Virus record (IMG/VR): IMGVR_UViG_3300003316_000080
Span: 3,483 to 67,482 of that record
Strand: one strand, 5' to 3'
Origin: a virus
DNA: 64,000 nt
Shown here: positions 2,256 through 31,892 of the stretch, piece by piece
Layout: the number at the start of each line of letters is the position of its first letter
Position numbering within the stretch: position 1 is the stretch's first letter
Notes under the pieces: model-generated
Told to the model about the DNA's origin: nothing
The model's database searches: none
The model's input: the letters and a program-made list of their open reading frames with translations, nothing else
Made by a program: the position numbers and the translations under genes

Positions 2256-3832
2256 TTCTGGTGTCGCGCCATGCCATCACACGCTACCTTGACCGAGAGC
2301 TAGAAACACACAAGTGGGTCAAGAAGCTGACAGAGCGTCAGCTGTGGCAGGAACTGAAGCAGCTGCGCACTGTCCCTCAGTTCAAGACTGACCCATGGCT
2401 GCACCAACTGGCGTGCTTCTATCTGGGCCTGCACTACCTGCGCTTCCTGTTCATCCTAGACATGGGGCTGGGCAAGTCGAAGTTGGTGATTGACCTGATC
2501 GAGCACCGTTTTCGGCAGAAGCGTCTCAGCATGCGCCGCGACGGACGCACAGCGCTGGTGATCGTTCCAGGCGTGCTGAATACGGTTGGATGGGGTGAGG
2601 ACATCGAGCGCCATTCACTCATGGAACCGCACCTGATCACGTGCGAGAACATTGAGCAGAAGCGCTATGAACTGCTGCACCCACAAGGTGAAGTGACCGT
2701 GATCGACATGCCGTCGCTTGCCCTAGCACTGTCCACCAAGAAGAAAGGCAAGGGTCGTGGCAAGTTGCTGGCAGACAAGCAGGCGATTGCACGCGCTCAG
2801 CAGTTGTACGGTTTCATTGGCGTTGATGAGACGCACAAGTACAAGAACCACGAAACCCTGTGGTACGACGTGCTCGATCCTCTGTGTGCAGCAGCCGACG
2901 AGGTGAAGGGGCTGACTGGAACCATCTTCAGTGCAAGTCCGATCGAGATGTGGCCGCAGTTTAATCTCGTCGACCGAGGTGAGACGTTCGAGAACCGTGG
3001 ACTCTTCCAGGCGGCCTTCTTCGACTCGAAGTCAGATCATGTGAAGGGGACTGTGTACACCTTCAGGCCTGAGAGGACACGTACTCTCAACAGGATGATG
3101 CAGCACCGCTCGATTCAGTATGACGAATCGGAGGTGCACGAACTTCCAGAGCGCGTCTATCGTCCGATCAGGATGGAACTGGCAGGCGAAGCGGACGAGC
3201 ATTACCGTCGCGCTCTGGAAGGTGTCATTAATGTTGGCGCCGCCGAGAGTAGCAAGCTAGATGGAGGCTGGGTGCGCATGCGCCAGATCTGCGGTGGCTA
3301 CCTGAAGTGGTCTGATGCACACGGAGCGCACAAGCTCATCTTTGCACAGAACCCGAAGTTGGACATGCTGATGCGCCTGCTGGAGGACATCGGAAGTAAG
3401 AAGGCTGTTGTGTGCCATGACTACACCGACAGCGCGGAACTGATCGAAGCGCGGTTTAAGAAGGAGGGCATCAAGTACGCCACGTGCTCAGGGCGGACGA
3501 AGGACAAACCGGCAGAACGCGCTCGCTTTCTCGATGATCCAACCTGCCGCGTCTTCTTGATGCAGAACGCGGCTGGGGGAACAGGCACTGACGGCCTGCA
3601 GAAGGTGTCCAACTACATGATCTTCTTTGAGTCGCCAGCCTCCCCGGGTCTGCGCAAGCAAGTAGAAAAGCGCATACATCGTCCAGGTCAGACACAGAGG
3701 GCGTTCTACTACGATTTGACATATGGGCGCACCGTCGATAGCGGCATCCGTGAAGCACACAAGCAGGGTTTTGACCTATACGAAGCCGTGATGTCTGGAC
3801 GCTCTTCGACCTTGAGAGGGCTCATGAGTTGA
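2252..3832 (+). CDS. SF2 helicase, SNF2/DEAH-like
   Basis: Motif I LDMGLGKS, motif II GVDETHKYKN, C-terminal helicase domain with GGTGTDG and HRPGQTQ. Confidence 0.7.
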   Translation: MILVSRHAITRYLDRELETHKWVKKLTERQLWQELKQLRTVPQFKTDPWLHQLACFYLGLHYLRFLFILDMGLGKSKLVIDLIEHRFRQKRLSMRRDGRTALVIVPGVLNTVGWGEDIERHSLMEPHLITCENIEQKRYELLHPQGEVTVIDMPSLALALSTKKKGKGRGKLLADKQAIARAQQLYGFIGVDETHKYKNHETLWYDVLDPLCAAADEVKGLTGTIFSASPIEMWPQFNLVDRGETFENRGLFQAAFFDSKSDHVKGTVYTFRPERTRTLNRMMQHRSIQYDESEVHELPERVYRPIRMELAGEADEHYRRALEGVINVGAAESSKLDGGWVRMRQICGGYLKWSDAHGAHKLIFAQNPKLDMLMRLLEDIGSKKAVVCHDYTDSAELIEARFKKEGIKYATCSGRTKDKPAERARFLDDPTCRVFLMQNAAGGTGTDGLQKVSNYMIFFESPASPGLRKQVEKRIHRPGQTQRAFYYDLTYGRTVDSGIREAHKQGFDLYEAVMSGRSSTLRGLMS

Positions 3833-3871
3833 TATACAATCTGCTGCAAGATAAACAAGAAGGCGGCAAAC

Positions 3872-4942
3872 ATGACTGGGCGGGTCTTTCGTTGGCGTGA
3901 ACTATTTGACGAACATCACGTTCGTTACATAGAGCGCGGCGCCAACGTGAAGCGCGGGGAGATCAACATCAAGTGTCCGTTCTGTGGCGCAGCTGATCCC
4001 AGCTACCACATGGGCGTCAACCTTGAATCAGGCTTTTGGGCCTGTTGGCGTAATGAGAACCACCGGGGCAAGTCGCCGCTGCGTCTCATCGTCACGCTGC
4101 TCAAGGTGTCGTACTACAGGGCCCGCGAGATCGCTGGCTTTGGTGACGACTACATCGATCCCGAGGGCTTCTCTGCTATGGCTGCACGCGTGCTGGGCCG
4201 CGACGGCCTGCTCGCTGGTGGCCGCACGGTTGACGAGGACCGGCAGCACCTGAAGTTCCCGCGTGACTTCGACACGCCACGCCGTCAGCGTGGATCGCGC
4301 GTGTGGAATTACCTCGCACGTGAACGCGGTTTCGGTGTCTTCACAGATGAGTTGATCGACTACTACAGCATCAAGTGGACTCAAGGCGCTGAAGTCAACG
4401 AGAAAGATCCCGACGCGTGGAAGAAGAAATACGCCTGGACGGATCGCGCCATCATTCCGTATTACCTCGACCACAAGCTGATGACCTGGACAGGCCGCAC
4501 GGTAAACGGTCATGCGATCCGCTACAAGGATCTCTCAGTGGACGAGTCCATCAAGCCCCCCAAACAGACGCTGTTCAACTTTGATCGCACGATCAAGGGC
4601 GGTCGGGTGCTGCTGGCTGTCGAAGGTCCCATTGATGCACTGAAGGTCGATTTCTTCGGTGCAGAGGTCAAAGTGCGCGCTGTGGCGATGAGCACCAACA
4701 GCATGACGGATGAGCAGGTATATATGCTGGCCGACGCTGCCGAACGCTTTGACCGCCTGTTGTTCATGCTCGACAACAAAACGCAATTCGGCATCGTCGA
4801 TTCGATGAAGATCAAAGCCAAGCTGAGCCACATCCCGAACGCGGGTGTGATCAGTGTTCCCTACGGCTTGGGGGATGCTGGGGCGCTCAGTCCCAAACAA
4901 GCAACGGAATGGACGGACAAACTTTCTTCGGGGGAGCTATGA
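3872..4942 (+). CDS. putative DNA primase (zinc-binding N-terminus, TOPRIM-like core)
   Basis: CPFCG...ACWRNENH zinc-binding arrangement; LLAVEGPIDALKV and LFMLDNK acidic motifs; position between helicases and polymerase. Confidence 0.5.
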   Translation: MTGRVFRWRELFDEHHVRYIERGANVKRGEINIKCPFCGAADPSYHMGVNLESGFWACWRNENHRGKSPLRLIVTLLKVSYYRAREIAGFGDDYIDPEGFSAMAARVLGRDGLLAGGRTVDEDRQHLKFPRDFDTPRRQRGSRVWNYLARERGFGVFTDELIDYYSIKWTQGAEVNEKDPDAWKKKYAWTDRAIIPYYLDHKLMTWTGRTVNGHAIRYKDLSVDESIKPPKQTLFNFDRTIKGGRVLLAVEGPIDALKVDFFGAEVKVRAVAMSTNSMTDEQVYMLADAAERFDRLLFMLDNKTQFGIVDSMKIKAKLSHIPNAGVISVPYGLGDAGALSPKQATEWTDKLSSGEL

Positions 4943-5259
4943 GGTTCAATCACGAGATGAACACGCATTTCCGCGACTGCACGTTGATCGCGGAAGCCTA
5001 CGACAGTCACCGCGATCGCCACGTGACGCTGCACATCCTGCCGGGCACTGAAGATTGCGTGGGTGTCACGGACGGCACAGACGCGTGGCTGTGCCCGATC
5101 AGCGTGGATGCGTTCGGCATCAACATCGCCAAGGCGCGCTCAGACGTGCGCGACGGCAAAGACCCCATCCGACGACAGAAACCGGCCGCGCGCCGCAAGC
5201 TGTTGCTGGAGGATCAACCCACCAGCAAGACCCGTCGTGCTTTGCTGGTGGAGGTGTGA
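4939..5259 (+). CDS. hypothetical protein
   Basis: ATG preceded by GGGGAG; overlaps primase stop; stop abuts next start. Confidence 0.35.
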   Translation: MRFNHEMNTHFRDCTLIAEAYDSHRDRHVTLHILPGTEDCVGVTDGTDAWLCPISVDAFGINIAKARSDVRDGKDPIRRQKPAARRKLLLEDQPTSKTRRALLVEV

Positions 5260-5260
5260 A

Positions 5261-5848
5261 ATGCGCAAGCAACTCGTTGCACACAAGGTGGCTCCGTTGC
5301 CGTTCGAGGGCAAGATAGCCGGCTACGTCGTGAACAACCTGGAGATGTGGAAGTACGAACCGCTCTTCACGTACAACGACATGATCCAAGAAGCCACGCT
5401 GGTGTGGCTGAAGTGCGGACAGGAATACCCGCACGTCGTCAGTAAACACTTTATGGCCCTGTTCAAGACGGCGTGGTATCGGCGCTGTGTCGATCTCGCC
5501 TATGAAGCATCGGAGTGCCGCGCACAGATCGCGATCACTTTCGGCGATACATACGGTTCGGATGACGAAACCATTGCGCTGGCTAAAGAACCGATGGGCG
5601 ATGAAGAGAACGCGGGCTACATGCGCACCCTGATCCGTCAGATCACGGAGCAGGCACCGGAAGAAGTCGTCAGCGTGTTCACGCTGATGCTCAATGCGCC
5701 GGTTGAACTGCTTGAACTGGCGTCGAACGCACTGGGACGTCGCAACAAGAACAACTCCAACATGATGGTTGCTCGTTGTCTGGGCCTGCCCGATGACAGC
5801 AAGCCTGTAGACGCAGCAAAAAGTTATGTACGCAGCGCACTGAAATAA
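5261..5848 (+). CDS. hypothetical protein, possible sigma-factor-like regulator
   Basis: ATG with GGAGGTG RBS (track ORF 5063 is an upstream extension); weak resemblance of NDMIQEATLVWLK to sigma region 2. Confidence 0.5.
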   Translation: MRKQLVAHKVAPLPFEGKIAGYVVNNLEMWKYEPLFTYNDMIQEATLVWLKCGQEYPHVVSKHFMALFKTAWYRRCVDLAYEASECRAQIAITFGDTYGSDDETIALAKEPMGDEENAGYMRTLIRQITEQAPEEVVSVFTLMLNAPVELLELASNALGRRNKNNSNMMVARCLGLPDDSKPVDAAKSYVRSALK

Positions 5849-8158: not shown

Positions 8159-10792
8159 ATGTCGTTTTTCTTCGCAGAGACAAAGCGCGCCAAGAAGACA
8201 GGCGCTCCGTCGAAGAAGGCCGTGATCCCCATCGCAAGCCTGCAGCGTGCCGGCTGCACTGTATGTCCGCGCAAGGCAGACTGGGACGACGGCATCAAGA
8301 CGCCACAGATGAAACCGGCCGGCCATCAGTCGCCGACGGTGTATCTGCTAGGCACGGCCCCGTCTGAGAAGGAAGACCGACTGGACGAGCCCTTTGTGTC
8401 CACAGCCTATGAAGAGGTGCTGTCGAAGTTGCCGGCGTCTCTGAGGCGGTATAGCCGCGTCGGCTATCTGACGCAGTGCAAGGCCGCCAGTAAAAACTTG
8501 ATGCTGGAGATGTCGCCGGACCACGCGGAGATCGAGTGCTGCCGTCCTCGCGTGATCGCAGACATCGAAGAGACGAAGCCGATTGTCGTGATCGGCATCG
8601 GCGACAAAGCGCTTAATTGGGCCCTCCCCTTCTCATCGGGCGTCACCTCGATCACGCATCGAGGCACCTTGTTTCCGGTGAAGTTCGGGACGCACACGTG
8701 CTGGTTTTACAGCGTCATGTTCCCGGCATATGTGCACCGAGAAAAGCGCAAGTATCCGACTGAGTACGAGATCGCGCTGACGCACGACCTACGCAATCTC
8801 GCTAAGTTGATCAACAACGAAGAGATTGGTGTTCCGAAGATCTACGCAGACAAGTGGGAAGAGGGTATCGAGATCGTGACAGGTCACGATGCCGGAGACT
8901 TCCAGCGTGTGGAGCGCGCACTTGCAGACATGGCAGCGCTGCCCGATGTCGCACTCGACATCGAAACCAATGGCCTGCGGCCCTGGCACTTGAACAAGCC
9001 CAGGTTGTGGACTGCCGCAGTAGGCACATTCGAGCGTGTGATCGCCTTCCCGATTGATCATCCTGACGGCTGGGGCGCTGACGCGCGCATCCGCAAGATG
9101 CACGGTCTGTTCGCTGAGTGGCTGTGGCAATCGCGCCGGAAGTGGGCACATAACCTTGCAATGGAACTGGAGTGGTTTAACTGGTTCTACAGTCCGCACG
9201 CGATCATGGGCAATGAGTGGGGCGACACGATGGCCCTTGCCCATGTACTCGACGAGCGCAAGGGCACGAAGTCATTGGAGGTGCAGACGATCATTGGCGC
9301 CGGCTTCAACCTGAAGTCCATGAGTCCAGTTGATCCGTCGTTGCCTGACTGGATCAGTAAGTACCCGATTAAGACGGTGCTGAAGTACAACGGTGGAGAC
9401 TCGAAATGGACGGACTTCCGTCGCCGCCAGCTGCAGCCGATCGTGGAGGCCGACGAAAAGCTCCATGACGTCTATCAGCACAAGATTCGAATGGCGCCGG
9501 CTTTGATCCTCACAGAGGCCAAGGGCCTACCGGTGTCTGTGCCGCGTGCTGAGAAGATGAATCGCGCACTGACGGAGCAACTGCACAAGATTGAAGACAA
9601 GCTGCGGGCTGATGTGGCTGTGCGCCGCCATACAACGCAGTTCGGCCAGTTCAGCCCGACGAACTCCGATCATGTGCTCGCGCTGATGGAAAAGACCCTC
9701 AAGCGCGATGAGATCTACATCATTGAGAAAGACGGGTCTGAGTCGAAGTCAGTCGCTGAAGAAGTGCTGGCGCTGATGCCTGAAGATGAGGTGCCATCAG
9801 CGAAGTTGATCCTGGAGCACCGGGGCATCTCCAAGCTGAAGTCGACGTATCTGGAGCCAGTGATCAAGGGCACGATGATCAGCGTCGATGGCTATGTGCA
9901 CTCGAAGTACAGCAGTCTGTTCGCCGCGACCCACCGCCTGAACTCTGAAGATCCCAACGCGCAGAACTGGCCTAAGCGCAAGCACAAGGAAGTTCGCTCG
10001 ATCTTCTACGCGGAAGATGATGAAGAGATTCTGGCGTGCGACTACGGCCAGATCGAGTTCCGCGTCGTGGGCATGTGCTCGGAGGACGACAACCTGTGCC
10101 GGGCCGTGTGGACCGGGTACGACGTGCACTTGCACTGGGCAGAGCGGATCGTCGCCCTGTATCCCAAGATCAAGGACTGGATCAGATCAGAGTTCGAGGT
10201 GGACTGGGATGAGAAGGGCATCAAGACGCTGCGCCAGGAGGCCAAGAACAAGTGGGTGTTTCCGCAGTTCTTCGGTGCCTCGATCAAGTCGTGTGCAGCC
10301 TCTCTGCACTTGCCTGAAGAGGTCGCGCAGGATCTGGCTGATGAACTATGGGATGAGTTCCGAGGCGTCAAGCGCTGGCAAGACAAGTTGATGGAGTCGT
10401 TTGCGCGCAAGCTCTACGTGGAGACGCTGGACGGTGCGCGCCGTCGTGGGCCCATGACCAAAAACGAGATCATCAACATGCCGATCCAGGGCACAGCGGC
10501 CCGCATCGTGCAGACCGCGCATGCAGCTTTGGCTGAACGCGGCTTCATCATGGATCGCGGCGTGTATATCCCATCGCTGAACGTACATGATGACCTCTCA
10601 ACCTGGAGCAAGAAGGCAGAGCGGGAGGCCAACGTGAAGATCATCGTCGAAGAGATGTGCAAGCACCGATTTGACTGGATCAACGTGCCGCTGCTGGTGG
10701 AAGTGTCGGCCGGGCCTGACTGGTCCGACCTGACCGAGATCGGCAAGTACAGCAGCCATGAGCTGTTCAACATCAGGAACCCTTACCAATGA
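8159..10792 (+). CDS. DNA polymerase, family A, with N-terminal uracil-DNA glycosylase (family 4-like) domain
   Basis: N-term GTAPSEKEDRLDEPFV (UDG family 4 motif); exo DIETNG; pol motifs DYGQIEFRV, QGTAARIV, NVHDDL. Confidence 0.85.
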   Translation: MSFFFAETKRAKKTGAPSKKAVIPIASLQRAGCTVCPRKADWDDGIKTPQMKPAGHQSPTVYLLGTAPSEKEDRLDEPFVSTAYEEVLSKLPASLRRYSRVGYLTQCKAASKNLMLEMSPDHAEIECCRPRVIADIEETKPIVVIGIGDKALNWALPFSSGVTSITHRGTLFPVKFGTHTCWFYSVMFPAYVHREKRKYPTEYEIALTHDLRNLAKLINNEEIGVPKIYADKWEEGIEIVTGHDAGDFQRVERALADMAALPDVALDIETNGLRPWHLNKPRLWTAAVGTFERVIAFPIDHPDGWGADARIRKMHGLFAEWLWQSRRKWAHNLAMELEWFNWFYSPHAIMGNEWGDTMALAHVLDERKGTKSLEVQTIIGAGFNLKSMSPVDPSLPDWISKYPIKTVLKYNGGDSKWTDFRRRQLQPIVEADEKLHDVYQHKIRMAPALILTEAKGLPVSVPRAEKMNRALTEQLHKIEDKLRADVAVRRHTTQFGQFSPTNSDHVLALMEKTLKRDEIYIIEKDGSESKSVAEEVLALMPEDEVPSAKLILEHRGISKLKSTYLEPVIKGTMISVDGYVHSKYSSLFAATHRLNSEDPNAQNWPKRKHKEVRSIFYAEDDEEILACDYGQIEFRVVGMCSEDDNLCRAVWTGYDVHLHWAERIVALYPKIKDWIRSEFEVDWDEKGIKTLRQEAKNKWVFPQFFGASIKSCAASLHLPEEVAQDLADELWDEFRGVKRWQDKLMESFARKLYVETLDGARRRGPMTKNEIINMPIQGTAARIVQTAHAALAERGFIMDRGVYIPSLNVHDDLSTWSKKAEREANVKIIVEEMCKHRFDWINVPLLVEVSAGPDWSDLTEIGKYSSHELFNIRNPYQ

Positions 10793-19709: not shown

Positions 19710-20651
19710 ATGACTGTCTATTACAACGAGTTCAATCTGCACGCAGCCAAGTGGATTAGCAATCTGATCAAGGCAGGTTTGATAGCACCCGGGATTGTCG
19801 ACACAAGGAGCATTGAGGATGTCAGACCGCGAGACTTGCGAGGGTTCAAGCAGTGTCATTTCTTCGCCGGAGTGGGCGTGTGGAGCTATGCACTCCGACA
19901 AGCGGGATGGGCAGATGACAGAGAGGTCTGGACAGGTAGTTGCCCCTGCCAACCTTTCAGCTCGGCAGGCGCAAAAGCTGGGTTTGATGACGAGCGGCAC
20001 TTGTGGCCCCACTTCCACTGGCTCATCGGCGAGTGCCGACCTACAGTCATTTATGGAGAGCAGGTTGCAAGCAAGAACGCGGACCCTTGGATCGACCTTG
20101 TATGTTCTGACCTGGAAGCCTTGGGTTACGCCTTCGGGGCGGTCCCGTTTGCGTCAGCGGGCGTCGGCGCCCCGCACGCGCGAGAGCGTACGTACTGGAT
20201 GGCCCACACCAACAACAAGGGACTGGAAGGACGGCAAGGGTTGCGACAACGTACCGGCGAACGCGCTGCTGGGGCGTGTGGTGTGGCTGGCCGGTTGGGC
20301 AACGCCGACTACGTTGCACAACAAGCGGACGGAGGCTTTCGCGGCGGGCCGCACTCCGACGCCTTCGGAAGTGCTGCCGACCTGCCAGCCGGCCCGACTA
20401 ACGGCTACTGGAAAACTGCTGACTGGCTCTTCTGCCGGGATGAGCAGTGGAGGCCCGTTGAACCCGGCACATTCCCGTTGGCTGATGGCGCTGTTGCCAG
20501 AATGGGACGCGTGCGCGCCTATGGAAACGCTATCAATGCTGAGCAAGCCCGAATCTTTATTGAAGTGGGCATGGAAGCCTTGCACGCCCAGACACAAGCT
20601 GAGAACACCTCGGCATCAACTGCGCGGAAGCAACTGAGAGGCCCTACGTGA
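19710..20651 (+). CDS. DNA (cytosine-5)-methyltransferase
   Basis: Motif I FFAGVGVW, motif IV GSCPCQPFSSAG, ENV-like YGEQV, motif VIII LEALGYAFGAVPFASAGVGAPHARERTYWMA, motif X-like RAYGNAINAEQA. Confidence 0.7.
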   Translation: MTVYYNEFNLHAAKWISNLIKAGLIAPGIVDTRSIEDVRPRDLRGFKQCHFFAGVGVWSYALRQAGWADDREVWTGSCPCQPFSSAGAKAGFDDERHLWPHFHWLIGECRPTVIYGEQVASKNADPWIDLVCSDLEALGYAFGAVPFASAGVGAPHARERTYWMAHTNNKGLEGRQGLRQRTGERAAGACGVAGRLGNADYVAQQADGGFRGGPHSDAFGSAADLPAGPTNGYWKTADWLFCRDEQWRPVEPGTFPLADGAVARMGRVRAYGNAINAEQARIFIEVGMEALHAQTQAENTSASTARKQLRGPT

Positions 20652-20881
20652 AGATCACTGACGTGTCCAACAAGAAGACAGTGGTGTGTGGCTTCACATG
20701 CTGGCATTGCCGCCGCGTGGTGTTATCTGGTGGCGCCGCTGAAGTCGTCGAGATCTCGATCAAGTTGCGGCCGGGCGCTGACAGACGTGAGCGTGCAAAC
20801 CGCCTGAGAATGGCCCGTGCTGAACTGCGCCATGCCCTTGCTATATTCCGCGCCAACAAAGAACTTGAGGACCTCGCATGA
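20648..20881 (+). CDS. small zinc-ribbon protein
   Basis: GTGA overlap upstream, ATGA overlap downstream; CGFTCWHC cysteine cluster. Confidence 0.4.
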   Translation: MKITDVSNKKTVVCGFTCWHCRRVVLSGGAAEVVEISIKLRPGADRRERANRLRMARAELRHALAIFRANKELEDLA

Positions 20882-23370
20882 GTGTGCGTTGTGTTGACTG
20901 CCTTGTGGGCCTGCGCCAGCTTCCAGATGCATCCGTTGATGCCATCGTCACGGATCCGCCCTACGGCCTGAGCGAGCAGAAGCCAGCGGAACTCGCTGCT
21001 TGCATCGCTGCATGGCTGGCCGGCGAGGTCTACCAGCCGAAGGGCAAGGGCTTCATGGGCAAGTCCTGGGACGCCTGGGTGCCTGGGCCCGAAGTCTGGC
21101 GCGAGTGCTTCCGCGTTCTCAAGCCGGGCGGACACATCCTGGCCTTCGCCGGCACGCGCACGCAGCACTTGATGGCGCTGTCGATGGCCCTGGCTGGATT
21201 CGAAATCAGGGACATGATCGCCTGGGTGTATGGCTCCGGGTTTCCGAAGTCGCTGGACGTGTCGAAGGCGGTCGACAAGGCAGGCGGAGCCTCGCCCGTC
21301 GAGCAGGCTGAACTGCTGCGCCGCAAGCGCGTGGCGGCCGGCCTGACGCGAGAGCAGGTCGCGGAACACTGCGGGTGCACTCCATCGAGCGTTCGAGACT
21401 GGGAAGAAGGCCGAGCGCGCGCCGTCGGTGCCGCCGTTGAGTTCATCGTCCCGAGCGACGAGTACCGCACCAAGCTGGCCGACTTGCTCGGTTACAGCGT
21501 GGACGAGCGCAAGCTGATTGGAACCTCGGCTGACCGGCGCGGCGATGGCACCGTCTACGGGGTGGGCCACAGCGGAGAGTTGCGCGCTGGCGGCAACACC
21601 GACGCTGCCCGCCAGTGGGAAGGCTGGGGCACCGCCCTGAAGCCGGCCCTTGAAACGGTTACTTTCGCTTCAAAGCCGTATACCGAAGAGCAGGAACGGA
21701 GTATAATTCAATCGAACCTAATTCGATTGGAGGCCCGTTTATGGTTGCTGTCGTCTGCGAGTGCTGCGGAAAAGAGTTCAACGTCAAGCCAAAGCGAGTA
21801 CGGCGCGGCGTGCGCTATTGCTCAATGGAGTGCCGACGAAATCACCAGTACACGGGCCGCTTTGTGCGGTCAGATGGATACGTCGCTGTTCGAGTGGGCA
21901 GCGACTACCAGCTTGAGCATCGTGTCGTCATGGAGGCGCACATTGGTCGAAAGCTGGAGCGATGGGAGCACGTCCACCACCGAAACGAAGTCAAACACGA
22001 CAACCGACTCGAGAACCTTGAAATTCTCACTGTCGCAGATCACGCCGAGCACCATCATCAAGGCCTGCAGCCTTCCCGGTGGGTTCAATGCGAATGCCTC
22101 CACTGCGGAAAGCCACTTCAACGCCTCGCTGTTGTTGTTGCAAAGCATCCGCACACTTTCTGCGACCGAGCCTGCTATATCGCAGGCGCAGCACGAACAC
22201 CTGGGCGCGGGCGTAAAGCCGAACCTTGATCCATGCATCATGGCGCGCAAGCCGCTGGTCGGAACGGTCGCGGCCAACGTTCTGGAGCACGGGACGGGGG
22301 CGCTGAATATCGACGGGTGCCGCGTGGGCGATGAGGAGCGGGTGAACGGCGCCGGATCTGTGACCTCGCTTCAGCGTCAATCACGGGTCGCGGCGGGATA
22401 CCGCGATGATGCTGGCGTTGGCCCAGGCTCTGACGCGAAGACCGTTGTTGGCCGTTGGCCCGCCAACCTGATCCACGACGGCAGCGACGAGGTGCTGGCG
22501 GCGTTCCCGAACGCGCCTGGTCAACTCGCGACGGCGAGCACCAGCGACACGCAGCGCTCCGGACAGAACACCTACGGTGCGATGACCCGTGGCAGCACGG
22601 GACAAGAACCGCGCGACGAGCTCGACAAGAGCGCCGCCCGATTTTTCAAGGAGTGTGCATGGGACGAACCTCGATCTGTTGCGAGCACTGCCGCGCAGCC
22701 TTTGTGCCTGCAAAACCAAGTCGCCGATTCTGTTCAGAGCGCTGCAGCAACTTGGGCCAGCCTCGCGGGAATACTCTCAAACGATTCGAAGGAACGTTCT
22801 ATGAACGTAACTCCGATCGAGTCAAGAGCGATCGCAGAAACCGTTATCACTGCGACGACGAGTATCGCAAGCGGGTTCTCGCTCGAGTCGCAGCACGAAA
22901 GGCTCACCCCGTGCCGCAGCCTTGTGAAGACTGTGGTGCGCCGAACGCCGATCGGCATCACGACGATTACGACAAGCCTCTCTCGATCCGATGGAAGTGC
23001 CGGAGCTGCCACGTTCACCATCACGCCGACGAGCTTGGATCGTGGGGATCTGGGCTCGCGGTTTGAGTACTGCGCCAAGGCTAGCAAGAAGGATCGCGGC
23101 GAGGGTAACAACCACCCTACTGTCAAGCCGACCGCGCTGATGCGGTATCTCGTCCGCCTTGTTACCCCTCCGGGTGGCACTGTACTTGATCCTTACACGG
23201 GCTCTGGTTCAACAGGAGTGGCCGCGCAAGCGGAAGGCTTCAAGTTCATCGGATTTGAGAATGACCCTGCTTCTTGTGCGATTGCAAACAGGCGAATGGG
23301 ACTCACGGGCCTGCTTGCTGTGAACAAAGAGCGCCGCCAGCTGCGTCTTCGCAAGCAGTTGATTGAGTGA
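20878..23370 (+). CDS. N6-adenine/N4-cytosine DNA methyltransferase (DPPY class), open frame interrupted by two HNH-gene inserts
   Basis: N-term VTDPPYGL; embedded XRE-like HTH; GWGTALKPA../..ARKPLVGTVAANVLEHGTGALNIDGCR; C-term HPTVKP and VLDPYTGSGSTG; 830-aa frame with no stop. Confidence 0.7.
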   Translation: MSVRCVDCLVGLRQLPDASVDAIVTDPPYGLSEQKPAELAACIAAWLAGEVYQPKGKGFMGKSWDAWVPGPEVWRECFRVLKPGGHILAFAGTRTQHLMALSMALAGFEIRDMIAWVYGSGFPKSLDVSKAVDKAGGASPVEQAELLRRKRVAAGLTREQVAEHCGCTPSSVRDWEEGRARAVGAAVEFIVPSDEYRTKLADLLGYSVDERKLIGTSADRRGDGTVYGVGHSGELRAGGNTDAARQWEGWGTALKPALETVTFASKPYTEEQERSIIQSNLIRLEARLWLLSSASAAEKSSTSSQSEYGAACAIAQWSADEITSTRAALCGQMDTSLFEWAATTSLSIVSSWRRTLVESWSDGSTSTTETKSNTTTDSRTLKFSLSQITPSTIIKACSLPGGFNANASTAESHFNASLLLLQSIRTLSATEPAISQAQHEHLGAGVKPNLDPCIMARKPLVGTVAANVLEHGTGALNIDGCRVGDEERVNGAGSVTSLQRQSRVAAGYRDDAGVGPGSDAKTVVGRWPANLIHDGSDEVLAAFPNAPGQLATASTSDTQRSGQNTYGAMTRGSTGQEPRDELDKSAARFFKECAWDEPRSVASTAAQPLCLQNQVADSVQSAAATWASLAGILSNDSKERSMNVTPIESRAIAETVITATTSIASGFSLESQHERLTPCRSLVKTVVRRTPIGITTITTSLSRSDGSAGAATFTITPTSLDRGDLGSRFEYCAKASKKDRGEGNNHPTVKPTALMRYLVRLVTPPGGTVLDPYTGSGSTGVAAQAEGFKFIGFENDPASCAIANRRMGLTGLLAVNKERRQLRLRKQLIE
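21741..22229 (+). CDS. HNH homing endonuclease nested in MTase gene
   Basis: Own GGAGG RBS; CxxC clusters; EHVHHRNEVKHDNRLENLEILTVADHAEHHH; +2 frame relative to MTase. Confidence 0.8.
   Translation: MVAVVCECCGKEFNVKPKRVRRGVRYCSMECRRNHQYTGRFVRSDGYVAVRVGSDYQLEHRVVMEAHIGRKLERWEHVHHRNEVKHDNRLENLEILTVADHAEHHHQGLQPSRWVQCECLHCGKPLQRLAVVVAKHPHTFCDRACYIAGAARTPGRGRKAEP
22659..23066 (+). CDS. HNH homing endonuclease nested in MTase gene
   Basis: AAGGAG RBS; CEDCGAPNADRHHDDYDKPLSIRWKCRSCHVHHH; +2 frame relative to MTase. Confidence 0.75.
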   Translation: MGRTSICCEHCRAAFVPAKPSRRFCSERCSNLGQPRGNTLKRFEGTFYERNSDRVKSDRRNRYHCDDEYRKRVLARVAARKAHPVPQPCEDCGAPNADRHHDDYDKPLSIRWKCRSCHVHHHADELGSWGSGLAV

Positions 23371-27409: not shown

Positions 27410-27501
27410 CAAGACACTCGCACTGAACAACAAGTAAAAACCCAACAGACAAACACCACACTGATCAGGAGGCCCCTAGCAAACCTACATGAGATTTTGA
27501 T

Positions 27502-27921
27502 ATGGACGAAAAACGCAAACGTGGTCGGCCGGCTGGAGCAATGAACAAGCTCAGTCAGGAGGCTGTCAACCTCGCAAAGCAGACAGGTAAGTTGCCCCAT
27601 GAGATCTTGCTAGAGATCGCACGGGGCAATCCCATTTGTGTGCTGAGTATGGAAGAAGGCGTTCTGAAGCCTGTCTATGTCATGACAGATCCTGCACAGG
27701 TGCTTGATGCAGCAAAGGCAGCAGCACCGTACTTCGCGCCGAAGATTTCTACAGTTGAAGTGATTGCAGGGGTATCTGACCATGAACTTGATCGCATCAT
27801 TGCGCTCGCTGCCGCCGAAGCAGGCATTAGCCTTGGCGCTAGCGGAGAAGGCGAAGAGACAGAGGAAGAGGAACCAACTGAGCGAAGCAGCCGAAAGGGC
27901 CGTAGACAGCTACGCGAGTGA
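27502..27921 (+). CDS. terminase small subunit
   Basis: N-terminal KRKRGRPAG DNA-binding-type motif, PYFAPK motif, acidic tail; directly upstream of large terminase. Confidence 0.6.
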   Translation: MDEKRKRGRPAGAMNKLSQEAVNLAKQTGKLPHEILLEIARGNPICVLSMEEGVLKPVYVMTDPAQVLDAAKAAAPYFAPKISTVEVIAGVSDHELDRIIALAAAEAGISLGASGEGEETEEEEPTERSSRKGRRQLRE

Positions 27922-29629
27922 AGCAGAGGGGCCTCCTGTCCCTCTGCAGGTTTCCTCAGTCGTACTAGACGACACGCACGTAATCAGCCAACTGCTTACA
28001 ACAGGCAAGTTGTGTGCGGGTCCGTCTGCACAGCACATCCGCTACAAGATCTACTGGGGCGGTCGTGGTGCTGTGAAGTCGTGGGGCATGGCAGAAGCAC
28101 TAGTACGTCTGGCAGCTGCCAAGCCTCTACGCATACTGTGCTGCCGTGAGTTTCAGAACTCGATCAAGGACAGTGCACACAAACTGCTGAAAGACACGAT
28201 CGAGAGACTTGGTCTGTCTACGTGGTTCACTGTCACTGCCGACAGCATCAAGTCTCGTGTCGGTGCAGAGTTCATGTTCAAAGGCCTGCACAACAACGAG
28301 AACGGCATCAGGTCGACTGAAGGCGTAGATATCTGCTGGGTGGAAGAAGCACACAGCGTTACTGCACTTAGCTGGCAGAGCCTACTGCCCACGATCCGTG
28401 GTGACGAGTCAGAGATCTGGATCTCGTTCAACATGGTCGAAGAGAGTGATGCTACGTACCAGATGTTCGTAGCAAATGAACGCCCTCACTCGATCGTTCA
28501 CCACATCAATTACGACAGCAATCCGTTCCTACCGAAAGTGCTCCGTGATGAAATGGAGCACGACAAGAAGACGGACTACGCGCTGTACGAGCACATCTGG
28601 CTGGGCAAGCCTCGCAAGCGTAGTAACGCAATCGTCCTCAACGGCAAGTACCGCATTGAGGAATTCCCAGATGATCTGTACGAACACGCAGATAGGTTGT
28701 TCTTCGGTGCTGACTGGGGCTATGCAGAAGATCCGTCCACGCTGGTGCGTTGCTTCATCCTGAACAACAAGCTGTACATCGAGTACGAGGCATACGGCAA
28801 GCACATCGAACTGAACGACTACGCTGCGTTCTATGACCAAGTGCCCGGGTCACGTGACTGGCCTATCTATGCCGACAGCGCGTTGCCAGCAACGATCTCG
28901 CATGTGCGCGGTCTGGGCTTTGCGATCGATGCGGCAGAGAAGTGGCCGGGCAGTGTCGAAGACGGCATCAAGCATCTGCGGGGGTACGACGAGATCATCA
29001 TTCACCCGCGCTGCAAGATGGCGGCCGACGAGGCTTACAAGTGGCGGTACAAGGTCGACAAGAAGGTGCTGGATGCCAACATGCAGCCACTCGTACTGCC
29101 CACGCTGGTAGACGCACACAATCACTGCATTCCGGCTGGCGTGCTTGTGTCTACTGCGTGTGGCGATGTGCCTATTGAGCAAGTACAAGTAGGCGACCTC
29201 GTGTGGACGCGTGTTGGTCTGCGTCCTGTGTTGTGGGCAGGTGCCACAGACACGAACCGTGAAGTGCTGGAGATCACGTTGTCATCTGGTCATGTAGTGC
29301 GCTGCACTCCTGACCACGAAGTCTTCGTGAATGGTGAGTTCATTCGTGCAGACGCTGCTCAGGTGTCTGACAACATGAACACACTCGACAGCACGGCACA
29401 TGGCAGGCGAATTGGCACTGCGTCTGTAGTCTCTATCACTCGCATCGCGGAAAAGGCTGATGTTGTCTATGACGTAACGGTCGATGGACAACACGAGTTC
29501 TTCGCGAATGGTGTGCTGGTTCACAACTGCTGGGACGCGGTCCGGTACGCCCTACATGGCTACATCCCCAGATCGGGTGAGATGGGCGTGTGGAACAGAC
29601 TAGGCGCCCAAGCTCTGGGACAATCCTGA
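27782..29629 (+). CDS. terminase large subunit, intein-containing
   Basis: Walker A-like YWGGRGAVKS, C-terminal nuclease domain; start uncertain (first in-frame ATG overlaps TerS by ~140 nt). Confidence 0.8.
   Translation: MNLIASLRSLPPKQALALALAEKAKRQRKRNQLSEAAERAVDSYASEAEGPPVPLQVSSVVLDDTHVISQLLTTGKLCAGPSAQHIRYKIYWGGRGAVKSWGMAEALVRLAAAKPLRILCCREFQNSIKDSAHKLLKDTIERLGLSTWFTVTADSIKSRVGAEFMFKGLHNNENGIRSTEGVDICWVEEAHSVTALSWQSLLPTIRGDESEIWISFNMVEESDATYQMFVANERPHSIVHHINYDSNPFLPKVLRDEMEHDKKTDYALYEHIWLGKPRKRSNAIVLNGKYRIEEFPDDLYEHADRLFFGADWGYAEDPSTLVRCFILNNKLYIEYEAYGKHIELNDYAAFYDQVPGSRDWPIYADSALPATISHVRGLGFAIDAAEKWPGSVEDGIKHLRGYDEIIIHPRCKMAADEAYKWRYKVDKKVLDANMQPLVLPTLVDAHNHCIPAGVLVSTACGDVPIEQVQVGDLVWTRVGLRPVLWAGATDTNREVLEITLSSGHVVRCTPDHEVFVNGEFIRADAAQVSDNMNTLDSTAHGRRIGTASVVSITRIAEKADVVYDVTVDGQHEFFANGVLVHNCWDAVRYALHGYIPRSGEMGVWNRLGAQALGQS
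29126..29527 (+). mobile_element. mini-intein within terminase large subunit (134 aa)
   Basis: Begins CIPAGVLV (block A), TPDH (block B), ends GVLVHN followed by +1 Cys; no endonuclease domain. Confidence 0.7.
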
Positions 29630-29654
29630 ATGTTTTCAACGAAGGGGAACTGAA

Positions 29655-31892
29655 ATGCCACGTGTCTTGACACCATCGCCTCTCACCGCCGAACTGCGTG
29701 CGGCAGGGTTTCCATGGGCAGATGATTCCGGTGTACTGCGCGCTGCCGATGGCACTGTCATCAGTAGCGGTGGGGGTGCGTCGACCTTCACTGCGCTGAC
29801 GGATAGTGCGAGTGCAGACATTCCTGCCACCAATGCACCGACAGCAGCAGCACTCGCTCTGAAGGCTAGTCTGGTGAATGGCGGTGTACCGACATCGCAA
29901 CTGCCGCGATCCACTGCAGCCGTGACGCTCTCTGCAACGACGAGTGCAACTCCCACAGACGGCACCTTTGCTGCGCTGCCGGCGCAGGCGTGTACGGAAC
30001 TGGAGGTATTCAACGACAGCCAAGTGCCCGTCGAGTACCGCCGTAATGGCGCCGGCAACGTCGTCACACTCCTGGCGAATCAGCGTCGCCGCATCCTCGG
30101 CATCACCGACGCCAGCCAGATCGCATTCCGGCGCTCTGACTACGCAGTGGCCGGCCGGACGCAGCCGACGACGATCTCTGTCCGTGCTCGCACGAACACG
30201 GACACGTACACGCTTGCCGGCACGCTGTCGATGGTGCTCAGTGGTGGTTCGTACACGGCGTTTAGCAGCCTCGCGTGTACGTCCATGGAGATCTTCAACA
30301 ACTGCAACCACGACATCCTCTTCACGATCGACAGCGGCACGGCGTACAAGCTGCGTCACGGTGAGTCGGCTGTGATTCTGGGCATCGCCAACGCCAACCA
30401 AGTGCGTGTCAAGACCTATGATTCGATCGCTCGTCAATCTCGCAATCTCGAGGCCGAGTGCTGGACGGTAGGTCTGGGTCGGGAGACGCTGAGTCCGTAC
30501 CGTGCAGACGCCATCACGGCTGAAGCCGACATTCTCAACGGCGAGCCCAACTATCCGAACCTTCAGCCAATCGGCGCGGTCCTGACGCTGGGCAACCTGC
30601 GTCCTGTGCCGCGTCTGCGCAAGAAGCCGGTGGAGTTGGCGAAGTGGGATCTGGCGGCCAATGTGGTCACCAACCGTGCGGCTGACTTCGCTGACATCAC
30701 ACCGGCCGCTGTGGGCAAGGACGAGATTACCTTCGGCACCACGATCGTCGAGTACACGCAGTCTCAGACGGCGGAAGTACTGATCGCTCCTGCTGGTGTG
30801 CAGTCCACACCGGTCGACGTCTCCAATGGCTCGATCCACTTCACGCATGTGTGGCCGGACAACGCCGGCAACAACTACGGCGTGAACGGGCCTTCCAGCT
30901 TCATCATCGAACTGCACAGCGCGGGCTCGCCGTCAGCGCCCACGGCCAACTACCACACCAGTGGCGTACTGAACTCGCTGAATGCGGGCTTCATGGGCGC
31001 GTCCACGCTGGGCTATAACCTGCAGCGCTGCTTCTCTCTGCCGATCAACGCATTCACTGCGGCTGGCACGGGTGCTACGCTGACGGCGATCACCTGGGCC
31101 CGCATTCGCATCACGGGCCCGTCGGCGTCCAACGGCTGCAAGTTGCGCCCTGTCCGCCTCGACTTCGTGCCCAACGCGTTGACGAAGGGGACGGTGATCT
31201 TCACCTTCGACGACCTGCACGCGGGCGCCTGGACCAACGCGCTGCCGATCATGTCGAAGTACTCGTACCCGGGCGTCCTGTGCATGGACACCACGGTCAA
31301 GATGGGCCAGTCAGGCTTCCTGACACCCGAGCAGATCATTCAGATGCACCAGACGTACGGCTGGGAGGTCGGCTATCAGGTCTATCAGAACGAAACGGGG
31401 TTCAACCTCAACTCCGAATCCTGGATGCGCCAGGTCGGCAAGTGGGTGCTGGAGATGAACCGTCTGGGCATCCACGAGACGTACAACGGCTCGTACGGCT
31501 CGGGCACTGTGACGAACGTCGACGAAGAACGGCTGATGGCTGCTCGCCGTGCACTGTCGACGATGCGTCGCTTCACCAGTGGCACGAACACGTCCCCGCC
31601 CTTCAAGAACCCGGAGACGGTGCCCTACGGCGACCCGTACAACCTGCGGTGCCTCAACATGAGCAGTGGCTTCACGGCCGGCACGATCTACGATCGCTGG
31701 AAGGATCACGTCGATCAGGCCGTTGCTGCAAAGGGCGTGGCGATCTTCGCGTGTCACAGTGAATTCAACGGCGCCGGTGAAGCGCTGACGGCACTCGGTA
31801 CGCTCTGCGCGTACATCCGCACGCTGGAACTGGCCGGCAACTGCCAAGTGACCACCTTCGCCGGTCTGAACAAGCAGGCTTACGGGGTCTGA
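29655..31892 (+). CDS. large protein with C-terminal polysaccharide deacetylase (CE4/NodB-like) domain
   Basis: AAGGGGA RBS; C-terminal VIFTFDDLHAGAWTNALPIMSKYSYPGVLCMDTTV matches the NodB motif-1 region; N-terminal ~450 aa Ser/Thr/Ala-rich. Confidence 0.55.
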   Translation: MPRVLTPSPLTAELRAAGFPWADDSGVLRAADGTVISSGGGASTFTALTDSASADIPATNAPTAAALALKASLVNGGVPTSQLPRSTAAVTLSATTSATPTDGTFAALPAQACTELEVFNDSQVPVEYRRNGAGNVVTLLANQRRRILGITDASQIAFRRSDYAVAGRTQPTTISVRARTNTDTYTLAGTLSMVLSGGSYTAFSSLACTSMEIFNNCNHDILFTIDSGTAYKLRHGESAVILGIANANQVRVKTYDSIARQSRNLEAECWTVGLGRETLSPYRADAITAEADILNGEPNYPNLQPIGAVLTLGNLRPVPRLRKKPVELAKWDLAANVVTNRAADFADITPAAVGKDEITFGTTIVEYTQSQTAEVLIAPAGVQSTPVDVSNGSIHFTHVWPDNAGNNYGVNGPSSFIIELHSAGSPSAPTANYHTSGVLNSLNAGFMGASTLGYNLQRCFSLPINAFTAAGTGATLTAITWARIRITGPSASNGCKLRPVRLDFVPNALTKGTVIFTFDDLHAGAWTNALPIMSKYSYPGVLCMDTTVKMGQSGFLTPEQIIQMHQTYGWEVGYQVYQNETGFNLNSESWMRQVGKWVLEMNRLGIHETYNGSYGSGTVTNVDEERLMAARRALSTMRRFTSGTNTSPPFKNPETVPYGDPYNLRCLNMSSGFTAGTIYDRWKDHVDQAVAAKGVAIFACHSEFNGAGEALTALGTLCAYIRTLELAGNCQVTTFAGLNKQAYGV

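What the first reader, a model, noticed from the sequence alone, without database searches (positions are those of the whole stretch)
29126..29527. Mini-intein inside the terminase large subunit
TerL residues 455-588 begin CIPAGVLV (block A with Cys1), contain TPDH (block B) and end ...ANGVLVHN followed by Cys (+1). There is no endonuclease domain (134 aa). The exteins join as ...LVDAHNH/CWDAVRYALHGY in the nuclease region, so TerL activity would depend on splicing.
Basis: partly seen in the sequence, partly recalled or inferred. Interest (0 to 1): 0.6.

Follow-up and report, generated by a model that had tools for sequence, protein, structure and literature searches.

The report
Mini-intein splitting phage terminase nuclease site
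A 134-residue self-splicing protein element (a mini-intein) sits inside the DNA-cutting active site of a phage's DNA-packaging enzyme; it looks genuine, but many other phages carry inteins at this same spot, so it is an ordinary new example.

Summary
Window 29126-29527 (+) is 134 in-frame codons inside the large terminase gene (27782-29629). It starts with Cys, contains TPDH, ends in His-Asn and is followed by Cys. Curated intein and Hint profiles match above their thresholds. An AlphaFold model (pLDDT 97.5) superposes on solved mini-inteins at TM 0.75-0.85. All 119 other best TerL homologues lack the segment and carry an unbroken H-x-x-D-x-x-R-Y motif. The closest one (85% aa) aligns at DNA level up to 29125 and resumes at 29530.

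Removing the segment in silico restores a full Terminase_3C (RNase H-like nuclease) match. The insertion falls between the residues that align with SPP1 gp2 H400 and D403, the ligands of catalytic metal A. The precursor should therefore be nuclease-dead until it splices.

The kind is known. TerL inteins are common, and phage Mic1 has a published nuclease-domain mini-intein. Of the 150 nearest intein cluster representatives, 33 occupy exactly this site. The nearest relatives are about 325-residue inteins. In the one checked at DNA level (and in a second large TerL intein four residues downstream) the central region holds an out-of-frame HNH endonuclease gene, which the window's copy lacks.

Verdict: a real class 1 mini-intein, a new member of a known kind, of low interest. 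Splicing itself is inferred, not shown.

The parts
27782..29125 (+). TerL N-extein (448 aa): Terminase_3 ATPase domain and most of the RNase H-like nuclease domain. It ends ...LVDAHNH; the last His (29123-29125) aligns with SPP1 gp2 H400.
   Evidence: Pfam Terminase_3 134 bits and TIGR01547 172.7 bits. Sf6 gp2 4idh E=2.6e-58. The start at ATG 27782 is supported by conserved homologue N-termini and by the identical 615-aa P0001. 2wbn alignment.
29126..29527 (+). Class 1 mini-intein, 134 aa (14.4 kDa), with no endonuclease domain.
   Evidence: Intein and Hint HMMs above threshold. PDB sequence hits to NrdJ-1, gp41-1 and RecA mini-inteins. AF2 pLDDT 97.5. Foldseek TM 0.75-0.85 to solved inteins. 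Absent from 119/120 homologues. DNA alignment to L004 breaks at 29125 and resumes at 29530.
29126..29128 (+). Cys1 (block A), the nucleophile for the N-S acyl shift.
   Evidence: Read directly. Invariant in alignments A2 and A4.
29306..29317 (+). Block B, T61-P-D-H64 (TxxH).
   Evidence: Read directly. T61 and H64 are invariant in 31 aligned inteins. Aligns with IRCTPDH of the NrdJ-1 intein.
29465..29527 (+). Blocks F and G: VYDVTVDGQHEFFANGVLVHN, with block F Asp116 and His123, penultimate His133 and terminal Asn134.
   Evidence: TIGR01443 intein_Cterm 31.3 bits. N134 invariant; V114, Y115 and H133 at least 90% conserved.
29528..29629 (+). TerL C-extein (33 aa plus stop). Cys +1 is at 29528-29530. 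Asp at 29534-29536 aligns with SPP1 gp2 D403. Begins CWDAVRYALHGY...
   Evidence: Cys is the native residue at this position in 74 of 119 intein-free homologues.

Best explanation
Window 29126-29527 encodes a canonical class 1 mini-intein inside the large terminase (TerL, PBSX/Terminase_3 family) of a tailed phage.

TerL is translated as a 68.8-kDa precursor. In it the intein lies between the His and Asp of the nuclease H-x-x-D motif, which binds catalytic metal A. The Hint domain is then expected to run the standard four-step splicing reaction:
1. N-S acyl shift at Cys1.
2. Trans-thioesterification to Cys +1.
3. Cyclisation of Asn134, which releases the intein.
4. S-N shift, which forms a normal peptide bond.

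The expected products are a 54.4-kDa TerL with the contiguous motif ...DAHNH-CWDAVRY... and a free 14.4-kDa intein.

The intein has no homing endonuclease, so it cannot home on its own. It is inherited with the gene or moved by recombination. It belongs to a clade of inteins specific to this exact TerL site. Its closest relatives in that clade are about 325 residues long; the one checked at DNA level carries an out-of-frame HNH endonuclease gene in its centre.

What is shown: the sequence anatomy, fold, precise insertion, active-site location and family relationships. What is inferred: splicing activity, inactivity of the precursor, and how the endonuclease-free state arose.
For: - Boundaries and motifs were read directly.
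- HMMs pass their curated cut-offs: Intein_splicing 53.8/35.8, Hint_2, PT-HINT, intein_Cterm and intein_Nterm.
- PDB sequence hits go to NrdJ-1, gp41-1, NpuDnaB and RecA mini-inteins.
- The AF2 model built with a 31-sequence alignment has pLDDT 97.5 and pTM 0.90. The top 50 Foldseek PDB hits are all inteins or close Hint relatives (BIL and hedgehog Hog domains); examples are gp41-1 at TM 0.81/0.85 and NpuDnaB at 0.85/0.81 with rmsd 2.1.
- C1, T61, H64 and N134 are invariant, and H133 and C+1 at least 90% conserved, across 31 related inteins.
- 119 of the 120 best TerL homologues are 408-527 aa, lack the segment, and all have a contiguous H-x-x-D-[AGSC]-x-R-Y motif.
- DNA of the closest intein-free relative (L004) aligns to 27419-29125 and then to 29530-29657.
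- The precursor gives no Terminase_3C hit. The in-silico spliced protein matches it end to end (profile positions 1-154 of 155, 30.9 bits).
- The SPP1 gp2 nuclease (2wbn) aligns DNHTIDATRY with HNHCWDAVRY. H400 and D403 coordinate metal A, and H400A or D403N abolishes nuclease activity in vitro (PMC3592435).
- Same-site inteins occur in 33 of the 150 nearest cluster representatives. The window intein groups with same-site inteins P0132 and P0137 in an all-same-site clade of 24.
- Intein GC3 is 0.545 against 0.69 for the exteins. That lies in the lowest 0.13% of 134-codon windows from 19 genes, consistent with foreign origin.
Against: - No experiment shows splicing of this protein.
- Only one sequence of this allele exists (P0001 is identical), so purifying selection on the intein could not be measured.
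- The contig comes from a metagenome, so viability of the phage is unknown.
- The neighbour-joining tree has no support values and rests on about 124 positions.
- The low GC3 is shared in part by the 5' third of terL (0.59-0.63), so the compositional argument is modest.
Confidence: 0.9

Rival explanations
1. It is a decayed, splicing-dead intein relic. The terL gene would then be inactivated and the contig would be a defective phage or prophage remnant.
For: Mini-inteins without an endonuclease are at the late stage of the homing cycle and can decay. Only one copy of this allele was found. The exact protein was not on record in the contig index, so its abundance is unknown.
Against: Every catalytic position is intact: C1, T61, H64, D116, H133, N134 and C+1. 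The fold is predicted with very high confidence. The reading frame is open through both exteins. The surrounding replication, packaging and head genes are intact. A terminase that cannot splice would be lethal to the phage.
Confidence: 0.05
2. It is a non-splicing Hint or bacterial intein-like (BIL) domain, or a permanent structural insertion that stays in mature TerL or only self-cleaves.
For: PT-HINT also matches (32.5 bits). A BIL domain (2lwy) is among the PDB hits.
Against: The segment has the terminal His-Asn and a +1 Cys. It sits in a strictly conserved catalytic motif of an essential enzyme rather than in a variable secreted protein. 119 of 120 homologues lack it. A 134-aa domain left between the metal ligands aligned to H400 and D403 is incompatible with the RNase H-like active site. 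Simple cleavage would separate the last 33 residues, which include the catalytic Asp.
Confidence: 0.02
3. It is a functional intein whose splicing is conditional, for example redox-gated through Cys1/Cys+1 or delayed until late infection. It would then act as a post-translational switch on terminase nuclease activity. This refines the best explanation rather than excluding it.
For: The position inside the catalytic metal site makes the precursor an obligate zymogen. The authors of the Mic1 paper proposed such control for TerL inteins (PMC7156551). Both splice-junction nucleophiles are cysteines.
Against: Nothing in the sequence indicates regulation. Inteins prefer conserved active sites in general (PMC5050341), which is explained by homing-site conservation and selection against imprecise loss. 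74 of 119 intein-free homologues already have Cys at +1, so the site is simply permissive.
Confidence: 0.1

Closest known systems
Same-site TerL inteins in metagenomic Terminase_3 terminases (P0132, P0137, P0174 and P0267 large; P0233 mini) and in archaeal virus Caudoviricetes sp. vir335 (BK063680)
   Same: They share the same host protein family and exactly the same insertion point (…NH | C-x-D-A-x-R-Y). They are class 1 inteins with Cys1 and Cys+1, 51-55% identical over the splicing domain (vir335 36.5%). The window intein clusters with P0132 and P0137.
   Different: The nearest relatives are 323-329 aa. P0132, the only one of them checked at DNA level, holds an out-of-frame HNH_3 ORF in its central region; the window copy has only a short linker there. 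No same-site intein above about 57% identity was found.
Microcystis phage Mic1 TerL nuclease-domain mini-intein (PMC7156551)
   Same: This is a published mini-intein in the nuclease domain of a TerL, with Cys1 and Cys+1, in the same H..D-A-x-R-Y motif.
   Different: It sits in a different TerL family and is inserted one residue later (DHL | CDALRY). It is 28.9% identical. Mic1 TerL also carries a second, large intein in its ATPase domain.
Acinetobacter phage vB_AbaM_Highwayman TerL intein (OZ038341)
   Same: It has the best intein match among isolated phages (44% over the splicing parts). It is in the same TerL family and the same nuclease motif.
   Different: It is inserted four residues downstream (…NHYIDA | CRYA). 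It is about 330 aa and has a nested out-of-frame HNH_3 gene.
Mycobacteriophage TerL inteins (Kelley et al. 2016, PMC5050341)
   Same: These are inteins in phage large terminases at catalytic motifs. They were shown experimentally to splice, with the argument that splicing is needed to build the active site.
   Different: All seven reported sites are in the ATPase domain. Most carry LAGLIDADG endonucleases, and the host terminase families differ (Terminase_1 and Terminase_6).
Structurally characterised mini-inteins (gp41-1 6qaz, NpuDnaB 4o1r, Mtu RecA 3ifj, NrdJ-1 8ubs)
   Same: They share the Hint fold (TM 0.75-0.85), size (125-150 aa) and the block A, B, F and G residues.
   Different: They share only 19-27% identity over the structural alignment. 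Their host proteins differ, and several are split or engineered.

Membership tests
Intein (class 1, HINT superfamily) | Hint-fold splicing domain | tested here: met
   Pfam Intein_splicing 53.8 bits against a 35.8 cut-off; Hint_2 33.9 against 28.4. AF2 pLDDT 97.5. Foldseek probability 1.00 and TM up to 0.85 to solved inteins.
Intein (class 1, HINT superfamily) | Nucleophilic first residue (Cys/Ser, block A) | tested here: met
   Cys1 at 29126-29128. Invariant in alignment A4.
Intein (class 1, HINT superfamily) | Block B T-x-x-H | tested here: met
   T61-P-D-H64 at 29306-29317. T and H are invariant across 31 inteins.
Intein (class 1, HINT superfamily) | Blocks F and G with a C-terminal (His-)Asn | tested here: met
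   VYDVTVDGQHEFFANGVLVHN. TIGR01443 31.3 bits against a 15.6 cut-off. N134 invariant and H133 at least 90% conserved.
Intein (class 1, HINT superfamily) | Cys/Ser/Thr as the first residue of the C-extein | tested here: met
   Cys at 29528-29530.
Intein (class 1, HINT superfamily) | In-frame insertion with exact boundaries in a host protein whose orthologues lack it | tested here: met
   119/120 homologues lack it and have the contiguous motif. The DNA alignment to L004 is interrupted at exactly 29126-29529. The Terminase_3C match is restored after in-silico excision.
Intein (class 1, HINT superfamily) | Demonstrated protein splicing (ligated exteins plus free intein) | not testable with these tools
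   This needs expression followed by SDS-PAGE and mass spectrometry. Expected sizes are 68.8 -> 54.4 + 14.4 kDa.
Mini-intein | No homing endonuclease domain, in frame or nested | tested here: met
   The segment is 134 aa in total. No endonuclease family matched among the Pfam or NCBIfam hits. The loop between blocks B and F is about 45 aa. 402 nt cannot hold the roughly 215-aa HNH ORF seen in two large TerL inteins.
Class 3 intein | Trp-Cys-Thr triad with block F Cys as the nucleophile, usually without Cys1/Ser1 | tested here: not met
   Cys1 is present and the block F position is Asp116 (VYD), not Cys.
Bacterial intein-like (BIL) / pretoxin Hint domain | Hint domain in variable, often secreted proteins, generally without a +1 nucleophile and not at a conserved host site | tested here: not met
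   A +1 Cys is present and the host site is the invariant TerL nuclease motif. The PT-HINT score (32.5) is lower than the Intein_splicing score (53.8).
PBSX / Terminase_3 large terminase (host protein) | N-terminal Terminase_3 ATPase plus C-terminal RNase H-like Terminase_3C nuclease | tested here: met
   Terminase_3 134-135 bits; TIGR01547 172.7 against a 105 cut-off. Terminase_3C matches profile positions 1-154 of 155 after in-silico splicing. Sf6 gp2 and SPP1 gp2 structures match.

The most novel reading that the evidence does not exclude
The window's allele may be the endonuclease-free state of a large clade of inteins specific to the TerL nuclease H|C-x-D site. That clade has not been described systematically. 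In the one clade member checked at DNA level, the homing endonuclease is a nested HNH_3 gene in a different reading frame.

If the mini form is ancestral rather than a deletion product, it would be a natural 'before' state for invasion of a splicing-only intein by a free-standing HNH gene (the splicing-first model of intein evolution).

Alternatively, the intein could act as a conditional switch that keeps the terminase nuclease off until late infection.
Probability: 0.15. Interest if true: 0.4.

Novelty: new member of a known kind. Interest (0 to 1): 0.2.

Why it matters
The practical consequence is for annotation. The terL gene should be recorded as one gene encoding a 615-aa precursor with an intein at residues 449-582, not as a fused, frameshifted or unusually long terminase.

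The finding adds one more, fairly divergent (at most about 57% identity) natural Cys1/Cys+1 mini-intein of 134 residues. Small inteins like this are useful starting points for protein-engineering tools.

The comparison also shows that the H-x-x-D-A-x-R-Y metal-binding motif of terminase nucleases is a recurrent intein target, with at least three neighbouring insertion points across several TerL families. In two large TerL inteins checked at DNA level (one at this exact site, one four residues downstream), the homing endonuclease is an out-of-frame HNH gene. This fits the general rule that inteins settle in the most conserved catalytic sites of essential phage genes. It does not change that picture.

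Tried and rejected
- A megablast of terL against 50,697 phage records found nothing, so there is no close cultured relative.
- A word-indexed protein search with the intein alone returned no scored hits, not even the identical P0001, so that search was wasted. The exhaustive representative search replaced it.
- Single-sequence AlphaFold gave an unusable model (pLDDT 38.8). It was replaced by an alignment-based model.
- A look-up of the contig encoding P0001 found nothing on record, so the sample of origin is unknown.
- A second intein elsewhere in the window (DnaB-like helicase, PolA and other genes) was looked for with phmmer and with an HMM built from 31 inteins over all six-frame ORFs of at least 60 aa. 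Only the TerL segment matched.
- No free-standing homing endonuclease was found in the neighbouring genes scanned.
- The large inteins' in-frame central regions gave no Pfam hit. The endonuclease turned out to be in another reading frame.
- The CL131 cyanophage paper was checked for a TerL nuclease intein. Its intein is in dCTP deaminase, so it is not relevant.
- Class 3 intein, BIL domain and permanent structural insertion were considered and rejected (see the membership test).

Full report
**1. The observation**

The ORF 27764-29629 (+) encodes a large terminase. The codon TGC at 29126 opens the stretch CIPAGVLV. TPDH lies at 29306-29317. The stretch ends ...FFANGVLVHN at 29527, and TGC (Cys) follows at 29528. 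The segment is 402 nt, or 134 codons, in frame and without stops. The flanks read ...LVDAHNH | CWDAVRYALHGY.

The conserved N-terminus of homologues (MxLIxSLRSLPPKQ) and the identical 615-aa database protein P0001 point to ATG 27782 as the start. That makes the intein residues 449-582.

**2. Is it an intein?**

- *Profiles.* The segment passes curated thresholds for Pfam Intein_splicing (53.8 bits, cut-off 35.8), Hint_2 and PT-HINT. It also passes NCBIfam intein_Cterm (31.3, cut-off 15.6) and intein_Nterm (24.9, cut-off 24.5).
- *Solved structures by sequence.* The segment matches NrdJ-1, gp41-1, NpuDnaB and Mtu RecA mini-inteins. Block B (IRCTPDH) and blocks F/G (HNFFANDILVH) line up residue for residue.
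- *Predicted structure.* A single-sequence AlphaFold model was useless (pLDDT 38.8). With an alignment of 30 related mini-inteins the model reached pLDDT 97.5 and pTM 0.90, an all-beta fold. All top 50 Foldseek hits in the PDB are inteins or close Hint relatives (BIL and hedgehog Hog domains), at TM 0.75-0.85 for the best ones; examples are gp41-1, NpuDnaB (rmsd 2.1 Å), Ssp DnaB and RecA.
- *Catalytic residues.* Across 31 related inteins C1, T61, H64 and N134 are invariant. H133 and Cys+1 are at least 90% conserved. Cys1 together with Asp (not Cys) at the block F position makes it class 1, not class 3.

**3. Is it an insertion that must be removed?**

Of the 120 best TerL homologues, 119 are 408-527 aa and lack the segment. 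Only P0001, which is identical to the window protein, has it. The alignment shows a clean 134-column gap between ...NH and C/I/A-W-D. All 119 carry a contiguous H-x-x-D-[AGSC]-x-R-Y motif. The residue after the His is Cys in 74, Thr in 14 and Ser in 4. The site therefore already offers a splicing-competent +1 residue in most relatives.

The closest intein-free relative is P0002 (85% aa identity, contig L004). At DNA level it aligns to window 27419-29125 at 81% identity and resumes at 29530-29657 at 87%. The insertion is exact to the codon.

The precursor gives no match to the Terminase_3C nuclease model. The in-silico spliced protein matches it end to end (profile positions 1-154 of 155).

**4. 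Where in the enzyme?**

The spliced nuclease domain aligns with the SPP1 gp2 nuclease (PDB 2wbn), pairing DNHTIDATRY with HNHCWDAVRY. With the chain offset anchored on D266, the His before the intein corresponds to H400 and the Asp at +3 to D403.

In SPP1 gp2, D266, H400 and D403 coordinate catalytic metal A. H400A and D403N abolish nuclease activity in vitro, and H400A also blocks packaging (PMC3592435).

A 14.4-kDa domain between these two ligands should make the precursor nuclease-dead.

**5. Context**

The window is a tailed-phage genome.
- Replication module: DnaB-like helicase, SNF2 helicase, sliding clamp, family A polymerase and gp32-like SSB.
- Two DNA methylases.
- Packaging and head module: terL, a 745-aa ORF, portal, MuF-like protein, DUF2213 protease/scaffold and major capsid protein.

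The nearest cultured TerL is Edwardsiella phage vB_EpM_ZHS (60.7% aa), which has no intein. No other intein is present in the window. No free-standing homing endonuclease was found in the genes scanned.

The intein's third-position GC (0.545) is lower than that of the exteins (0.69). It lies in the lowest 0.13% of 752 134-codon windows from 19 genes. This is a modest sign of foreign origin.

**6. Relatives of the intein**

An exhaustive search of 1.84 billion representative proteins gave 6,943 hits at E<=1e-3, with a best identity of about 57%. I located intein boundaries in the best 150 proteins and sorted them by flanking sequence:

| Insertion point | Inteins found |
|---|---|
| H \| C-x-D-A-x-R-Y (same as the window) | 33 (11 mini, 22 large) |
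| H-x \| C-D-A-x-R-Y (one residue later) | 11 |
| After the Asp-Ala | 13 |
| Other terminase motifs (W \| CDE; LEDQL \| C) | 12 and 9 |

Pfam confirms that P0132, P0137, P0174 and P0233 are Terminase_3/Terminase_3C proteins carrying an intein at the same site. A neighbour-joining tree of the splicing domains places the window intein with P0132 and P0137, inside a clade of 24 inteins that are all at the same site. The tree has no support values.

Among annotated phages:
- Archaeal virus vir335 has a same-site mini-intein.
- Mic1 has one a single residue later. It was published as a nuclease-domain TerL mini-intein (PMC7156551).
- Acinetobacter phage Highwayman has a large one four residues later.

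The 2016 survey of mycobacteriophage TerL inteins found only ATPase-domain sites (PMC5050341).

**7. The missing endonuclease**

The large relatives have a central region of about 200 aa whose in-frame translation matches no Pfam family. In the two cases where I had DNA, that region contains an ORF in another reading frame encoding an HNH_3 endonuclease:
- L005 4602-5261 (40.5 bits).
- Highwayman L001 1779-2426 (51.9 bits).

The two ORFs are 36% identical to each other. Out-of-frame endonuclease genes inside inteins were reported recently for actinobacteriophages (bioRxiv 10.1101/2025.01.02.630785).

The window's intein has only a short linker at this position. It is either a deletion derivative or a never-invaded form, and my data cannot decide which. 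Without an endonuclease it cannot home by itself.

**8. Mechanism**

The following is inferred from family membership. The steps are an N-S acyl shift at Cys1, trans-thioesterification to Cys+1, cyclisation of Asn134 assisted by His133, and an S-N shift. This converts the 68.8-kDa precursor into a 54.4-kDa TerL and a 14.4-kDa intein.

**9. Rivals**

- *Dead relic.* This is unlikely because all catalytic residues and the frame are intact and terL is essential (about 0.05).
- *Non-splicing Hint/BIL domain or permanent insertion.* This is contradicted by the +1 Cys, the catalytic-site location and the absence from 119 of 120 homologues (about 0.02).
- *Conditional, regulatory splicing.* This is possible, but nothing in the sequence supports it (about 0.1). 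It is compatible with the main explanation.

**10. Verdict**

Inteins in phage terminases are well known, and this particular site is heavily used. It is a new, moderately divergent member of a known kind. Interest is low (0.2).

Noticed in passing
L005 4602-5261 (+) inside the intein of P0132 (terL 3001-5412); L001 1779-2426 (+) inside the Highwayman terL intein: Two large TerL nuclease-motif inteins carry a 215-219-aa HNH_3 endonuclease ORF in a different reading frame from the intein. P0132 is inserted at the window's exact site; Highwayman's intein lies four residues downstream. The in-frame translation of that region matches no family. The two nested ORFs are 36% identical to each other. 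A 2025 preprint reports out-of-frame EndoVII-like and in-frame HNH endonucleases in actinophage inteins, so an out-of-frame HNH_3 at this TerL motif may be a further variant.
   Followed up: partly
Proteins P0121-P0270, classified: The H-x-x-D-A-x-R-Y metal-binding motif of terminase nucleases is a multi-site intein hotspot across several TerL families. There are 33 inteins at H|CxD, 11 one residue later and 13 after Asp-Ala. Further TerL sites are W|CDE (12) and LEDQL|C (9).
   Followed up: partly
window 29126-29527 compared with the rest of the window: Intein GC3 is 0.545, against 0.69 in the exteins and a mean of 0.74 (sd 0.08) over 752 134-codon windows from 19 genes. Only 0.13% of those windows are as low. 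The 5' third of terL is also rather low (0.59-0.63).
   Followed up: yes
window 29655-31892 (+): A 745-aa ORF sits between terL and the portal gene, an unusual position. It gives only a weak, sub-threshold polysaccharide deacetylase match (20 bits) and a match to phrog_19032, which has no known function.
   Followed up: no
window 8159-10792 (+): A family A DNA polymerase (877 aa) has an N-terminal uracil-DNA glycosylase superfamily domain (residues 57-202). Together with the two DNA methylases at 19710-20651 and 20878-23370, this may hint at modified DNA or an unusual replication strategy.
   Followed up: no
window 27502-27921 (+), overlapping the terL start: A 139-aa ORF lies immediately upstream of terL and overlaps it, in the position of a small terminase. 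It matches only phrog_15261 (unknown function, E=1e-7).
   Followed up: no
L004 position 3083 (P0002): The closest intein-free TerL (85% aa identity) has Ile (ATC) where the window has the +1 Cys (TGC). Ile cannot support splicing, so that allele could not tolerate this intein without a further change. 74 of 119 homologues have Cys at this position.
   Followed up: partly
Proteins P0124, P0143, P0145, P0186, P0201, P0240, P0255, P0259, P0268: Some proteins contain tandem arrays of 130-135-aa Hint domains, each ending ...HN and followed by K-G-G-(G) rather than a nucleophile. These are repeated non-intein Hint modules of unknown role that appeared among the intein's relatives.
   Followed up: no
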